Positions 1,942 through 62,035 of a stretch of DNA of 64,000 nt are shown one piece after another. The first letter of the stretch is position 1, and each line of letters starts with the position of its first letter. The translations under genes were made by a program, and so were the position numbers. This DNA comes from Eledone cirrhosa. Lineage: Eukaryota. The stretch spans positions 3,472,001 through 3,536,000 of the forward strand of contig OZ024743.1 in NCBI GenBank assembly GCA_964016885.1. Reading direction: 5' to 3'. Below the pieces are notes generated by a model that was given only the letters and a program-made list of their open reading frames with translations, was not told where the DNA came from and made no database searches.

Positions 1942-1989
<48 letters not shown>

Positions 1990-1991
<2 letters not shown>

Positions 1992-2173
1992 CGAAAGAAA
2001 TGTGGTAAGGAACCAGGTGGACCATAACGCACCAAAGTACTCAATACTTAGGGTAGTAGAGTGGGTAATAGGAACCAGTAAGACCCCGACGGCTGAGCTC
2101 AAGCCGTTTCGACGGCTAATTCTGAATTAGCCGTCGAAACGGCTTGAGCTCAGCCGTCGGGGTCTTACTGGTT

Positions 2174-2178
<5 letters not shown>
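1990..2178 (-). mobile_element. Penelope-like pseudo-LTR fragment (family A) with fold-back palindrome
   Basis: Perfect 55-bp-arm palindrome 2068-2178 centred at 2123. Contains an HHR 3' half (stem II-GAAAC-stem III-GTC). Same family at about 21010-21090, 41953-42132 and 49095-49282. Flanked by (TA)n. Confidence 0.75.
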
Positions 2179-2206
<28 letters not shown>

Positions 2207-2211
<5 letters not shown>

Positions 2212-2589
2212 AAAATGGAACGGGAACAAAGCAGAGAGGCAGTACGAACAAAGGTTTATTAGTTTCACGCTCTTGAGAGTGAGGGGGGGGGGACGTTTCG
2301 GACATAAGCCCTTCTTCAGGCGAAAAGTGTGTGGGAAGAGAGTTCCGAGGGTGTGTTGGGGAGTGAGGGAGAGACATTTAGAAAAAAGGGGGAAAGGAAA
2401 AGGAGGAAAAAACGGTGGAAGGGGTACAAATAAAAATAAATATAAAAAAAATAAAAATAAAAATAAACATGAAGATAAACAAGTGGTGGGAGGGTGTGGG
2501 GCGTGTAGGGGTGGTGGCGGGTGAAGTGGGGAGAGGGAGGTGGGGTGTCCGAGCGGGGAGGGCTGAAGGTGGTGTATGTGTGTAGGTGT

Positions 2590-2624
<35 letters not shown>

Positions 2625-3690
2625 TGAGAGTTGGGGGAAGAACGAGGTTCCATATTCAGGAAAAGGTGTGTGTGTGGGGCGGGGTGTAGGTCGGTGTGTG
2701 TGTGCGCGTGTGGATGGGGAGGGGTGGGGGAGTATGGGAGAGGATTCCGGAGGCTGAGTGTGTATATATGTGGGGGTACGCACGTGTGTGTGGTGTTTAT
2801 ACGTATTGTGGATGTAGGTGGCGTGGTGGGAAAAAAATATTTGTGAGTGTATGTCCGTGGCTAAGTTCCTAAGGTAGTTCCGTAGAGGGTGTGGTGAGTT
2901 GCCGGGTATTTTCCTTGTGATGGAGTTGATTCGTGGGAGCGATGGCCAATGTGTGTAATCCGTGGTTGTGTTGGTCGGAAGAGGGGAGTGTGGGTCTGTA
3001 AGGTGAAGATGGTGCGTTGTTCGACCCTGAGGCGGGTGGCGGGTGTTCCGTGGCATTGGAGTAGGCCACAGACTGTGGGGTGGTGCGCGGAATGTCCAAG
3101 GGAGCCAAAGTGGCGGGCGATGGGGGAACTCCCGCCGAGACGAATATCCCGGAGGTGTTCGGTGAAACGGTCCGCCAGGCGACGTCCAGTCTGTCCGACG
3201 TAGGTTGCGCTACATTCTGTGCAGTGAAGTCCATAGACTAAGTTGGAGGAGGTGCAACGGAAGGCGTGCCGGACATAAAGAGAATGGCCATTGGGACCCT
3301 GGAAGGTGGTGGTGTTGGTGATGTGGGGACAGGTGTTGCAACGTGGCCTGGAACAGGGAAGGGAACCGGGGGAGGGGTAGGGGGCTGCGGACGAGGAGGG
3401 TGCGGATATTGCGTGTGCGTTTGAAGGAGGGGAGTGGTGGGGATGGGAAGATGTGGGAGGTGGAGGGGTCGGACTGGAGGCGTCGGAAGAGGTGGAGGAT
3501 GGTGCGGTAGAGGTTTAGGGTGGAGGGGTGGTAGGTGATGGGGAAGGGGATACGGTGGGAGGGGGTGCTGTTGCGTGGGGTGAGGGTGGTGGAGCGGTGG
3601 ACAGCCCGGCGCAAATGATGGCGGTGTGGACGAGGGGGGGGGGAAGCTCTGCGGATGAAATGGCTGACTAGGGAAAGGGCCTGGGACCGT
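2207..3690 (-). mobile_element. Penelope-like element (Neptune-type), 5'-truncated and frameshifted: linker, GIY-YIG endonuclease, pLTR
   Basis: RIPFPITYHPS...LQSDPSTSHIFPSPPLPSFKRTRNIRTLLVRS, then (frameshift) CSRPRCNTC...CTSSNLVYGLHCTECSATYVGQTGRRLADRFTEH, a GIY-YIG motif. HHR motif at 2292-2326. Confidence 0.9.
2292..2326 (-). ncRNA. Minimal hammerhead ribozyme motif in PLE pLTR
   Basis: Minus strand: CTGAAGA-AGGGCTTATGTCC-GAAAC-GTC. Stem I partner is unclear. Confidence 0.7.
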
Positions 3691-3744
3691 TATATATATA
3701 TATATGTGTGTGTGTATACACACACACACACACACACACACATG

Positions 3745-14977: not shown

Positions 14978-15070
14978 AGATTAAAAGTTAAAGCAAATTA
15001 TTTCTGCTTTCACCCTAAGCGGGATCATCTTAGGGTCAAAGCAGAAATAATTTGCTTAAACTTTTAATCT
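14978..15070. mobile_element. PLE pLTR fragment (family B) folded back at a hammerhead motif
   Basis: Left arm on minus reads GATGA-TCCC GCTTA GGGT-GAAAG-CAG..TTGC-TT. Right arm is its inverse. Other family copies at about 22845-22895 and 41732-41790. Confidence 0.65.
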
Positions 15071-15072
15071 TT

Positions 15073-15192
<120 letters not shown>

Positions 15193-15760
15193 AGACGCAA
15201 AATAAGAAAATTATAAAATTAACTTACTTACTAAAATATCACTTCCAACTAATTAGTTTCTGAAATGGAATAAATATATTTTCCGAAGAAAACATAGAGA
15301 ATCATTTCGTCGTCAGGGAAGACTATTCTCATCTAAGTATCCAGGCAAAGCGGGGACTCTGGAAACTTGTTCAAAAATAATTCAGTGGATAGAAAATAGT
15401 AAAAAATAGCAAAAAATAGCAAAAAAATAGCAAAAAAAAAATAACCACTTTCCACTGATTGACCTCGATGTCACGTGATTGATTCTTTTTGAATTTGCCA
15501 CCGACGCAGAGGCAGTGATTTTCTCAATGGCTAGGAATTCAGTCCACGCTTTGCTATTTTCTATCCACTGAATTATTTTTGAATAAGTTTCCAGAGTCCC
15601 CGCTTTGCCTGGATACTTAGATGAGAATAGTCTTCCCTGACGACAAAATGATTCTCGATGTTTTCTTCGGAAAATATATTTATTCCATTTCAGAAACTAA
15701 TTAGTTGGAAGTGATATTTTAGTAAGTAAGTTAATTTTATAATTTTCTTATTTTACGTCT
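15193..15760. mobile_element. Inverted pair of PLE pLTR fragments (about 210-bp arms)
   Basis: 15193-15400 is the reverse complement of 15553-15760. Each arm has an HHR motif. Confidence 0.8.
15632..15711 (+). ncRNA. Type I hammerhead motif with long stem II (inverted twin at 15242-15321)
   Basis: CTTCC-CTGACGA-[stem II region]-GAAAC-TAATTA-GTT-GGAAG. Stem I CTTCC/GGAAG, palindromic stem III. Confidence 0.7.
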
Positions 15761-15880
15761 TTCATATTATTGTTCTGCAACCCCATGCATTGAACCACAA
15801 AGTTACTAAGACAAAACCTATATATTTGCTAGCATTGATATGCATCTGTATGTATATATATATGTTACTAGATATTAATT

Positions 15881-20662: not shown

Positions 20663-21522
20663 GCAAAAATCAGAAATTCGTACTGGTGCTCTGAAATTTC
20701 GATGCATATATATATGAATGTATTTTGCTGGGCCGGCAACCGCTCTGTATGTTAATGAGTTTAAACAGCTCGTATACATAACTGGAATTCTATAAGAATC
20801 CAACTTCTATAACTGTCGGCAGAAGTGAAGGGGTATGTAGTCTTGACAACCACTTACAAGTGAGAAACTAAGTACGTGACGTAGTCACTATTTCAAAATT
20901 CATAACGAATGGTCCTCAAAATGTTTTAAAAAAACAGAGTATATTATCAAATATACTATACATACATTCATTAATATGTATATATATATATATGTGTGTG
21001 CGTGTATAAAACAAAGAGGGTGTGGTAAGATACCAGGTGGGCCATAACGCACCAGAGTACTCAATACTTAGGGTAGTCGAGTGGGTAATCGCTCACATCC
21101 GCACGGCCAAGATGTGTCTTTGCCTTCTCGTCAATATTCGCAAGTTCTTATGTTCAACATGAATTATTGACTTGATTTTCTCATTTTTTCCTCTCTTTAC
21201 GTTGCCTCACCATTCGTGTTTGTTTACCTGTCTCTCTTTCTCCACCCAACTCTTTTTATCCCAATAACTTAATTTAGTTATTGTATCACCCTAGCTTGAG
21301 GTATATGGTCTGTAATGCGAAGAAATACCTATGATAGCTAGTAGACCACTGATGACGGATATTCCTGGCTTCTATTTATAATTCTTCATTTATTATATTT
21401 ATATACACACTACGTAGCCATAATTAATGAATTTTAAACTCTACTTCGCTATTTACTACTCATCCTCACGTCCTTCAACAATACACAGATATACTTGTAG
21501 CCGGTAGAGGACTCTAGGCGCC

Positions 21523-22805: not shown

Positions 22806-22846
<41 letters not shown>

Positions 22847-22890
22847 ATCCCGTTAAGGGTGAAAGCAGCGATTCTCTGCTTAAACTTTAA

Positions 22891-22930
<40 letters not shown>

Positions 22931-41464: not shown

Positions 41465-41883
41465 CATCTTCCCCGAGGGTCCGGGTAAATCTTTCAATCA
41501 TATCTCATTTTGTTTGACCCGTTTAGCTTGTTCGCTTTTTTGGCTATGGTGGTTAATGGCTTCTTAACCATCGTCTCAGTTATGTTTATAGCTCTGGTAT
41601 CTTCTTCATATCCATGGAGCGCTTGTCTGCACAATATGGAAGTTGCGTTTCGCTAATTTTTACCCGCCGAAATGCGATTCTCGCTAAATTTATATTTATA
41701 TTTATATATATATATTTATTTATTAAAATAGCAGATTAAAGTTTAAGTAAAGAATCGCTGCTTTCACCCTTAACGGGATCGTCTCAAACTACTATATATA
41801 AATAAGAATTTTATTTCTCGCTCTAGCACAGCTGATACATGAAAGTAAGTATGCATACGTACACACACATATATATATACATA

Positions 41884-57760: not shown

Positions 57761-58181
57761 TGTTGAGCAGCTCACTGATACAGATGCGGTCGTTGAGCCG
57801 CTTACCAGTCACACACATATCAAAAATACACAAGTGATCCCCACCAATCACCCTTGTAGATATGTATGTTACTAACTGTTCGCTGTCCACTTCGTTTACA
57901 TACAACCACTCGGGTATCTAATGTAAATATACTTGTGTGTCAATTACAATACTTTTCACACATACAGTTAAACGCGCACGCACACACACATTCACATATA
58001 CATATACACATTGACTCGCACCTACTCTCATACATACGTACATGAACAGCTCAATTACATTTATACATAAATACATACATACACCTTCTCCATATATATA
58101 TATATATTTCGTTTCTGAATTTGTTGGCAACATGACCCTCCCAAAGTATAACAATATATATATATATATATATATAAAATC

Positions 58182-58309
58182 TTAAAAAAATAATGAATAA
58201 ACAAAGAAACAGTTCCTTATATTAAAAAAATTCATTATTTTACGATCGTAAAATAATGAATTTTTTTAATATAAGGAACTGTTTCTTTGTTTATTCATTA
58301 TTTTTTTAA
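58182..58309. repeat. Perfect spacerless palindrome, 64-bp arms
   Basis: Centre TACGA|TCGTA at 58245/58246. Confidence 0.9.
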
Positions 58310-58673
58310 TATTTTATCTTGACTCTGTTTTCCGTTTATTTTTCACCGAAAGTAGTTTTTGAATGCATCTTCTCTTTCCATGATATCCGGATTACATTGA
58401 GTTCTTCATACGGATTGGACACTACCGTAAACTTTTGGTAGATTTATCTACATATATATATATATGGAGAGGGTGTATGTATGTATATATATATATATAT
58501 ATATATATAAATGGAATAGAATGAAACGAAATTTCATTTCTCACTCTTAGAACGGCACTTACTTAAATGTAAGTATGTATGTATACGTACATACATATAT
58601 GTATACAGATGTACAATAGTATGTATATATATACATACATGCACACATATATATATGCACGTATATATATATT

Positions 58674-60100: not shown

Positions 60101-62035
60101 AGGCACCACCGTCCTCAGCAGCGAGTTCCTCACGGCAAATGTTTTGATTATTTGGTCTCATCTGAGACTAGACTTTTGGAAGACTTTCTGTACATTCTGT
60201 AAAAATTTCAGACCTCTTCTTTAAGTAATCATTTAAGAACATGAGCCTATAAAAAGAAAATCATCTTGTTTTTAACTAGACCCCGCCTCCTTCCTTCTCT
60301 GTCTTCTTCTGGATGATTGCTATTTTTTTCATGTTCAACTTGTTTTAATCCGATTAAACCAGTTGATTGTTGAGACCTGTGACTAAGTTGGTTCATAAAT
60401 GAGATCTAAAATCTGTTTTACTGTTTTGGTTTAAACATTCAAACAGAATAGTATATTAAACAATTTCATATCATGGCTTCTTTTCTTAGTTTTGTTTTTA
60501 GTTTGGCAGGAAACGAAATCTTATTAAATATATATACATACACACACGATTCAGCTCAAGTAACGGACATTGTCGGAATGTATACAGCACATATCTTGCA
60601 TAAGGAATTTGATAACCTACAAGGAGGAATTTATAGAGACGATACATTACTTTTAGCTAAAAGCCTAAATAATCAAAACTTAGAAAGATTACGTAAAAAG
60701 ATTAGAACATTCTTCAATAAATTAGGCCTAAATATCACTTTTGAACTTAACTCTAAAACAGCTACCTTCTTAGATGTATCACTTAACCTAAACACAGGAC
60801 TAATAGAACCCTTCCATAAAAATAGCGAAAAATCTAGCTTACATTACTTATAACTCTAATCACCCTCGCTCCATAATTAACTCCATAGCACATAGTATAT
60901 CCCTTAGAATTTCGCACTTATCTTCTAATCTAGAGATTTTTAACGAACACGCTAACTACTACAACATAGCTTTACTTAAGGCAAACTTTACATAAAGAGA
61001 GACTCAAATACATACCAGATACAAAAAATAACACACTTAACAGAAATAACACTATACACACCTATAGAAACAACAAATCTAGGACTAAACATAAACATTG
61101 GCAACAAGCACCAAAATTAATTGAACCGAATACTAATATAAGGACCTCTAGAAACTTTAGAAGATGCAAAGATTGAAAATAATTATGGTTCAATCCAATA
61201 TTTAACTCCTCTATAAAAACAAAACCACCTTATACTTTCTTTAAATTAATTGACAAACACTTCCCTAAACTTCATAAATACCATAAAATCTTTAATAGAA
61301 ATACTATCGAACTATCTTACTCCACTGCCAACAACATAGAATCGCACATACATAAAATTAACTACAAGAGAATTTCTAATACAAATAGCCCGCAAACAAG
61401 TACCATAAAACCAAATATAAAACTCAAACTCATAACATCATCACAACCAAACACACGTCAGAACACATCTCGACAATTCATCAATAAACCCAATTCTCAG
61501 CTCATGCATAACAACATACAAAACCGTATCGCGGAACCGGCACATAGGAAAGCATCAAAATGTAACTGTCATCTGCCTGATAAATGCCCATTACAAAATA
61601 GATGCCTGGAGTCAAATATATTGTACCTATGTGCTATAAATTCAGGCAACTTAGCATGGCACTACATACTACTACGACGGCGGGGGAGTTCAAGAAAAGG
61701 TGGTATGTCCACAGACACTCTATAAATAACAGGAAGCTTATGAATACAACGACGCTCGCCAATAAAATCTGGCAGCTCAAAGATACAAACCAGGAATACA
61801 GAATCAGCTGGATGAAGTTATTAACGGCAATAGCCTATAGAATTGGCATGTCCCACTGTGGTCTTTATAATATGGAACTATTCCATATTTTAAAATACAA
61901 CAAAATGCTACTTAACAGCAAAATTGAACGAACAATTTTCTGTATGCATAAAACGGCGACCAAATTCGATAATTTTAGACCAACTTAATTCATCCCATCT
62001 ATTCCATAACTCAAATTGTACCACTTAAAACTATT

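What the first reader, a model, noticed from the sequence alone, without database searches (positions are those of the whole stretch)
2068..2178. Fold-back palindrome pivots on hammerhead stem II and deletes the catalytic CUGANGA core
Seen: one arm reads stem II (GACGGCTAATTC-T-GAATTAGCCGTC), GAAAC, palindromic stem III (GGCTTGAGCTCAGCC), GTC, GGGGTC, which is the 3' half of a type I hammerhead. Where stem I 5' and CUGANGA should be, there is a mirror image of the downstream sequence. Known: Penelope-like pLTRs carry hammerheads and often show 5' inversions. Inference: nascent cDNA self-primes on the stem II hairpin, so the ribozyme's own structure sets the inversion point and yields short palindromic, catalytically dead insertions. 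The pattern recurs five times here across three pLTR families.
Basis: partly seen in the sequence, partly recalled or inferred. Interest (0 to 1): 0.78.

Follow-up and report, generated by a model that had tools for sequence, protein, structure and literature searches.

The report
Palindromic stumps of a Penelope retrotransposon
The palindrome is one of more than ten thousand tiny mirror-image leftovers of a Penelope-like jumping gene in this genome, and its mirror point likely marks where the element's RNA begins rather than a hairpin of its ribozyme, which would give a testable answer to how these elements build their head-to-head repeats.

Summary
The palindrome is real (55/55 bp arms). The true unit is 188 bp (1991-2178): a tail-less arm, a mirror arm plus a 77-bp tail, set in (TA)n. 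It is a minimal inverted insertion of a Hydra-type Penelope-like element: 11,583 short palindromes with tail, 1,741 non-inverted arms and an intact 719-aa copy (L093) lie in this genome. The parent core reads YUGANAA (U3-A8 or C3.A8), not CUGANGA. The mirror arm is not the native stem II. No product of a stem II pivot was found, and other families invert upstream of an intact core. Both arms stop in loop II, 31-47 nt upstream of the cleavage site. Centres differ from copy to copy, so most junctions form at insertion. Arms ending at A(-41) carry an untemplated G (8 of 9; 126 double-G palindromes against 2 and 10 in controls), 29 nt below a TATA-like box. Best reading (0.55): two cDNAs, primed at both cut ends from two internal start sites, run off the capped RNA 5' end and are joined head to head. 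The layout is known; this cause was not found in my searches and has no RNA evidence yet.

The parts
1991..2178 (-). Whole insertion: minimal inverted pLTR pair of a Hydra-type Penelope-like element, between (TA)n tracts
   Evidence: same two outer ends in the 30 best-matching loci
1991..2067 (-). 77-bp tail, present on one arm only; in the full-length copy it runs on into the 5' leader of the ORF; its end is the inferred second RT start site
   Evidence: one tail in 66 of 66 palindromes; tail ends at the same base in 73 of 90 copies
2068..2124 (-). Tailed arm: 3' part of loop II (to position -37), stem II 3' strand, GAAAC, stem III, GTC, stem I 3' strand
2124..2178 (+). Tail-less arm: same hammerhead 3' half from position -35 (GAAAC 2136-2140, stem III 2141-2155, GTC 2156-2158, stem I 3' strand from 2159), ending at CCTAT, the inferred first RT start site
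2123..2124 (.). Head-to-head junction, 1-nt microhomology at a CTG/CAG quasi-palindrome, 4-6 nt short of the inferred RNA start A(-41)
   Evidence: row 'win', -35/-37
1943..1990 (.). (TA)n target tract, left
2176..2207 (.). (TA)n target tract, right; shares TAT with the arm end
49095..49281 (+). Second copy, other centre (-32/-38), same subfamily as the full-length copy L093
41953..42131 (+). Third copy, older subfamily, other centre
21021..21089 (-). Tail-only fragment joined to the end of another repeat

Best explanation
The palindrome is a minimal inverted insertion of a Hydra-type Penelope-like retrotransposon, likely made when two cDNAs run off the capped 5' end of the element's RNA and are joined head to head. 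Shown: the family, the full-length parent, the two fixed outer ends, one tail per insertion, inner ends confined to -31..-47, varied centres and an untemplated G at -41. Inferred: transcription starts at A(-41) (also near -45 and -36) inside loop II, below a TATA-like box, so the RNA's first pLTR lacks the 5' core strand; the endonuclease cuts both strands of a (TA)n tract; RT starts at CCTAT on one end and at the tail end on the other; both cDNAs stop at the cap after about 60 and 137 nt, are trimmed, and each is completed on the other. The lost core is then a side effect of where the RNA starts. Rare read-through RNAs give the long and full-length copies.
For: Parent with RT and C-terminal GIY-YIG ORF between two pLTRs (L093). 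Sharp upstream wall: of 86 tailed arms 50 end at -31..-50, 2 at -51..-66, 0 at -67..-89, 8 beyond -90; of 66 tail-less arms 44, 1, 0, 1; all ends -31..-47 in 81 short palindromes although the pattern allowed longer. The arms start 77 nt apart yet stop at the same place. Untemplated G before A(-41): 8 of 9 arms against 6 of 40 at other non-A positions (Fisher p = 5e-5); genome-wide 126 palindromes with G on both arms at -41, 2 with A there, 10 with G at -40. TATTTAAA starts 29 nt upstream of A(-41) (promoter spacing recalled). Either arm can be the longer; blunt and 0-1-nt centres are common. In vitro a PLE protein cuts and extends both strands and starts RT at two internal sites that bound the tail, on uncleaved RNA (PMC11167929). 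Untemplated 5' G is read as cap copying in L1 (PMC9341517).
Against: No RNA data: the start site and cap are inferred from DNA only. 31 of the 50 listed double-G centres are CAG/CTG (counted by eye), which could be short templated copies of the arm itself. Double-G palindromes are 126 of 1,816 with both arms at or past -41; many end near -45 or are trimmed. Among short palindromes the tailed arm is longer in 45 of 81 and equal in 18, a lean that fold-back predicts. Both arms are of one subfamily in 54 of 56, so there is no clean sign of two different RNAs. No DPE-like motif at the usual distance (by eye, consensus recalled). In the second family an untemplated G was seen in only 3 of 50 (by eye).
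Confidence: 0.55

Rival explanations
1. One cDNA, started at the tail end, runs off the RNA 5' end, snaps back on itself by microhomology and is copied back to CCTAT; later trimming of the hairpin tip varies the centre.
For: Arms of one subfamily in 54 of 56; tailed arm longer in 45 of 81 and equal in 18; shares the cap evidence.
Against: Tail-less arm longer in 26 of 63 and 18 of 81, in several by more than 15 nt (e.g. L084, L201, L202, L210); G on both arms around a 0-1-nt centre needs an impossible loop; the fixed tail-less end matches a known RT start site.
Confidence: 0.2
2. Twin priming as in the best reading, but RT stalls at a protein-bound or folded barrier, or at the A/U-rich stretch in loop II, not at an RNA end.
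For: Ends spread over about 15 nt, many near -45; the stretch upstream of -45 is A/T-rich; no RNA start is shown.
Against: Does not explain a G confined to A(-41); the stop lies inside a loop, not at the foot of a helix; other families pivot at other places relative to the ribozyme.
Confidence: 0.12
3. Self-priming on an antisense RNA template, as proposed for head-to-head PLE junctions in bdelloid rotifers (PMC3846280).
For: Published proposal for the same layout; palindromic copies could make antisense RNA.
Against: The extra G sits 5' of the sense strand on both arms; in vitro PLE RT uses the sense RNA.
Confidence: 0.05
4. One reading: the cDNA self-primes on the hammerhead stem II hairpin, so the ribozyme sets the inversion point.
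For: Breakpoints lie just upstream of the stem II 3' strand.
Against: The mirror arm is not native stem II; 0 products that keep loop II in 290 loci plus the window; almost no arm reaches the 5' strand of stem II and stops there (0 of 86 at -67..-89); other families keep the whole core.
Confidence: 0.03
5. A non-autonomous, MITE- or SINE-like 188-bp unit copied whole from a few master copies.
For: Fixed outer ends; 40 scored hits match all 188 bp at 98-100%.
Against: Those 40 were picked by likeness from 1,328 candidates; unbiased copies show 52 centres in 81 matches, the commonest 6 times, in both flip and flop form; arm lengths grade into kilobase copies.
Confidence: 0.04

Closest known systems
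Hydra clade of C-terminal EN+ Penelope-like elements (Craig et al. 2021, PMC8557442)
   Same: Single ORF with RT then GIY-YIG-type EN; RWR (paper: RWK), DKT, CxCX5C, CxxC and CxH motifs, no CCHH seen; insertion into (TA)n; inverted 5'-truncated copy and one-sided tail.
   Different: The paper reports canonical hammerheads throughout the clade; here the core has A8 (U3-A8 or C3.A8) and loop II is about 32 nt. Unit 3.1 kb against 'generally <3 kb'; tail 77 bp against 30-40 bp. The hammerhead of Hydra-1_oBim in its File S2 is a different sequence.
Inverted pLTR plus tail of EN+ PLEs (Arkhipova et al. 2013, PMC3846280; Schostak et al. 2008, PMC2377424)
   Same: Head-to-head inverted pLTRs, tail on one, palindromic junctions, TATA/Inr-like motifs in the pLTR.
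   Different: Explained there by self-priming on an antisense template; here the junction tracks a likely capped sense start. Here the ORF-less minimal form dominates, at over 11,000 copies.
Poseidon PAc from Anolis in vitro (Frangieh et al. 2024, PMC11167929)
   Same: Two internal RT start sites bound the tail; both target strands cut and extended; AT-rich target; uncleaved RNA is the template.
   Different: The parts I read do not address the inverted junction or the RNA 5' end; other clade; canonical C3-G8 core.
U3-A8 minimal hammerheads of Schistosoma Cercyon PLEs (Cervera and de la Pena 2014, PMC4209133)
   Same: U3-A8 core covariation; G10.1-C11.1; palindromic loop III; paired hammerheads on opposite strands 100-700 bp apart.
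   Different: Here stem III is 5 bp, loop II long, and one subfamily has C3 with A8.
Non-LTR retrozymes (bioRxiv 10.64898/2026.07.22.740005)
   Same: Short, non-coding, PLE-derived, hammerhead-related.
   Different: Retrozymes are head-to-tail arrays of complete hammerheads; these are head-to-head halves without the core.

Membership tests
EN+ Penelope-like element | Single ORF with RT and GIY-YIG endonuclease between pLTRs | tested here: met
   L093: 719-aa ORF with YRDD and a C-terminal YIG-bearing domain between two pLTRs 3,118 bp apart; Pfam and PDB gave no hit, so the call rests on motifs
EN+ Penelope-like element | Tandem and inverted pLTRs with a tail at one end | tested here: met
   L093 layout; one tail in 66 of 66 palindromes
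Hydra clade | RWK-like, DKT, CxCX5C, CxxC and CxH motifs; no CCHH | tested here: met
   RWR 37, DKT 117, CNCPDRSIC 572, CNLC 670, CKH 698 against section 11 of PMC8557442; lack of CCHH judged by eye
Hydra clade | Insertion into (TA)n | tested here: met
Hydra clade | Canonical hammerhead core CUGANGA | tested here: not met
   0 of 100 listed parents; G8 in 1 of 41 arms; hence filed as Hydra-type variant
Hydra clade | Placement in the clade by RT phylogeny | not tested
   no reference Hydra proteins were fetched
Type I hammerhead ribozyme (parent) | Three helices around the core, GAAA and NUH in register | tested here: met
   97% of 170 cells paired in 8 natural copies, but no compensatory change, so the alignment is too uniform to prove selection; N3 and N7 vary while A8 and A9 show no listed variant
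Type I hammerhead ribozyme (parent) | Self-cleavage | not testable with these tools
   arms ending near the cleavage site are rare (114) and follow microhomologies; inconclusive
MITE / non-autonomous unit copied whole | One conserved internal structure and a target-site duplication | tested here: not met
   52 centres in 81 matches; a TSD cannot be read in (TA)n
Non-LTR retrozyme | Head-to-tail repeats, each with a complete hammerhead | tested here: not met
   head-to-head arms without the core

The most novel reading that the evidence does not exclude
The head-to-head junction of Penelope-like elements is a genomic record of the capped RNA start: PLEs insert by twin target-primed reverse transcription from two start sites, each cDNA serving as template for the other's second strand, so thousands of palindromes map each family's promoter to the base. 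In this family the start lies inside the ribozyme, so the upstream hammerhead is split by design and only the downstream one, a U3-A8 variant, could cut.
Probability: 0.45. Interest if true: 0.7.

Novelty: new variant of a known kind. Interest (0 to 1): 0.47.

Why it matters
How Penelope-like elements make their tandem and inverted structures is stated as unresolved in PMC8557442 and PMC11167929; the one proposal I found for the head-to-head junction is antisense self-priming (PMC3846280). This family offers over 11,000 independent junctions and a base-precise prediction (capped start at A -41) that one CAGE or 5' RACE experiment can test, plus an intact ORF for in vitro work. It also shows a Hydra-type family with a non-canonical core that CUGANGA-based searches miss, and that thousands of perfect 55-bp hairpins which look like MITEs or microRNA precursors are retrotransposon stumps.

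Tried and rejected
Rfam scan of the window: no hammerhead model listed; the palindrome only hits plant microRNA models below their gathering scores. CTGANGA 4-30 nt before the arm: 38 genome matches; 30 of 38 inspected were junction-made words or chimeras with other families; that gap was too short for the native spacing, so it does not exclude a canonical long-loop parent. First breakpoint parser over-extended through the palindrome and was replaced; a few rows are still artefacts (e.g. L158, L164, L218, L219), and one search counts a few loci twice. A peak of arm ends at the ribozyme cleavage site (11 of 86 at -3..0) did not hold up: the 100 listed of 114 genome matches follow microhomologies. 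Two-template chimeras: 2 of 56 discordant; L198 looks like a patch of gene conversion. Sequencing runs: no RNA holder listed; contigs of three runs were laid and show the same depth step, but cannot show starts. Pfam and PDB searches of the ORF were blank. Literature searches for the cap or run-off explanation found none: (open-access library only; the 2005-2006 PLE reviews were not read). 'Octopus' was a guess at the taxon and was not tested; PMC13282606 has no word on palindromes or hairpins. Look-ups of earlier scan notes by sequence and by place were blank.

Full report
Observation. Window 2068-2178 is a perfect inverted repeat of 55-bp arms around one base, far beyond chance (z = -24.5). 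One arm reads as the 3' half of a type I hammerhead. The repeat unit is larger: read on the minus strand it is (TA)n, a tail-less arm, the mirror arm, a 77-bp tail, (TA)n, 188 bp in all. The window lies in G000, an animal genome of 3.0 Gb whose taxon I did not determine. Positions below count from the predicted cleavage site (GTC^GGGG; -1 is the C).

The family. A 24-letter arm motif occurs 52,348 times and the arm-tail junction 34,216 times, with 0 for the reversed controls. Palindromes with a centre of at most 30 nt and a tail number 11,583. These are exact-match lower bounds. Outer ends are fixed: arms end at CCTAT before (TA)n or run into the tail (223 of 237 arms), the tail ends at one base in 73 of 90 copies, and each of 66 parsed palindromes has exactly one tail.

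The parent. 1,741 arms are not inverted and show the whole ribozyme: stem I ACCCC, core (C/T)TGA(G/T/A)AAG, stem II 5' strand CTCGGCTATT, a loop of about 32 nt, then the half seen in the window. None of the 100 listed reads CTGANGA; among 41 arms from my loci one has G8. The helices pair in 97% of cells in 8 copies, with no compensatory change. U3-A8 cores are known from Schistosoma PLEs (PMC4209133, parts 1-2 of 4 read). L093 holds a full copy: pLTR, tail, a 719-aa ORF, 3' UTR, pLTR, with an inverted copy at its 5' end. The ORF has RWR, DKT, YRDD, CxCX5C, CxxC and CxH, the marks of the Hydra clade (PMC8557442: passages, section 11 and supplement part 2 of 59 read). No tree was made.

Where the arms stop. 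In the first 90 tail-anchored copies on contig 1 (90 of 34,216), 50 of 86 placed tailed arms and 44 of 66 placed tail-less arms end at -31..-50; none ends at -67..-89; 8 and 1 run past -90; 26 and 20 are shorter. In 81 short palindromes every end lies at -31..-47, with 52 different centres: 29 with an insertion, 15 blunt, 24 with 1 nt and 13 with 2-4 nt of microhomology. Summed contig depth of a public run rises about 15-fold across this site and falls after the tail (not a copy number). So the junction is mostly made anew at each insertion, at a fixed wall in the 3' part of loop II.

Not stem II self-priming. The mirror arm is a copy of the 3' strand, not the native 5' strand. A pivot on native stem II would keep loop II; none was found in 290 loci and the window. 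The tail-less arm is the longer in 26 of 63 pairs and 18 of 81. Other families make the same palindromes with the CTGANGA core kept in both arms; one of them has 739 palindromes that pivot about 42 nt upstream of its core, 34 of 50 listed at one junction (by eye). For that family I saw no non-inverted parent, so a native hairpin there is not excluded.

What the wall is. At junctions with an insertion, arms that end at A(-41) have G just before it in 8 of 9 cases, where the parent has T or C; other non-A positions give 6 of 40. Genome-wide, 126 palindromes have G on both arms at -41, 2 have A there, and 10 have G at -40, out of 1,816 with both arms at or past -41. An untemplated 5' G is the accepted trace of cap copying in L1 (PMC9341517, passages). 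A(-41) lies in TTAGTC or TCAGTC, an initiator-like word (recalled), 29 nt below TATTTAAA. pLTRs are known to hold promoters (PMC2377424 and PMC3846280, passages). Caveats: 31 of 50 listed double-G centres are CAG/CTG and could be templated; many arms end near -45 or short of -41; the second family gave only 3 of 50 G; there is no RNA evidence.

Mechanism. PMC11167929 (parts 1-2 of 4 read) shows a PLE protein cutting and extending both target strands from two internal RT start sites that bound the tail, on uncleaved RNA. Applied here (inference): RT starts at CCTAT on one cut end and at the tail end on the other; on an RNA that begins at -41 both cDNAs run off after about 60 and 137 nt; their 3' ends are trimmed and joined by little or no homology, and each is completed on the other. 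This gives one tail, fixed outer ends, varied centres, either arm longer, and no 5' core strand. Both arms are of one subfamily in 54 of 56, so the template is one RNA or RNAs of one locus. The main rival keeps the RNA end but uses one cDNA that snaps back; it is favoured by the lean to longer tailed arms (45 of 81) and disfavoured by longer tail-less arms and 0-1-nt centres.

Known and new. The layout is textbook for PLEs. The published account of the junction is antisense self-priming. My searches found no paper tying it to the capped RNA start; subscription papers and older reviews were not covered, and the supplements of PMC11167929 and PMC3846280 were not read. The bioRxiv retrozyme paper was read in part 1 of 5 and PMC13282606 in passages. 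Earlier scan notes from other genomes report like palindromes built anew at each insertion; they are unchecked leads.

Verdict. New variant of a known kind, interest 0.47.

Noticed in passing
window 2208-3700, minus strand: A different Penelope/Poseidon-like element directly beside the finding, with a GIY-YIG fragment (2861-3514; Pfam E = 0.023) and a complete minimal hammerhead CTGAAGA...GAAACGTC near 2293-2319.
   Followed up: partly
window 14978-15070, 22845-22893, 41709-41790: Second hammerhead-bearing pLTR family; most parents read TCAGAAGA in the core, and several short copies begin near TTAGTT just upstream of it.
   Followed up: partly
window 60548-61952, plus strand: Decayed fragment of another Hydra-type ORF, 33-55% identical to the L093 protein in four pieces.
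   Followed up: partly
window 45330-45560; L109:5700-5860: Third pLTR family with a canonical core and a TATAAATA box about 24-33 nt above the place where its palindromes invert (few copies, by eye).
   Followed up: partly
L146:60-385, L218: A pLTR family whose upstream part looks like a tRNA gene (A and B boxes by eye) and which inverts at a GTAC word right after it; possibly a tRNA-headed PLE derivative.
   Followed up: no
L040, L050, L057: Chimeras in which another family's hammerhead 5' half is joined to this family's 3' half at short shared words, rebuilding a CTGANGA core.
   Followed up: partly
window 49401-49507: Full-length U6 snRNA copy (110 bits) next to the 49095 copy, between simple repeats; likely a retrocopy.
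   Followed up: no
window 58174-58317: 72-bp-arm A/T-rich palindrome of another repeat family, found in 5 of my loci; not shown to be a pLTR.
   Followed up: partly
window 15186-15767: Longer inverted pair (218-bp arms) with CTGACGA...GAAA in both arms, another PLE-type family.
   Followed up: partly
L121, L113, L120 and others: One abundant subfamily pairs C3 with A8, a mismatch expected to cripple the ribozyme, yet it spread to many copies.
   Followed up: no
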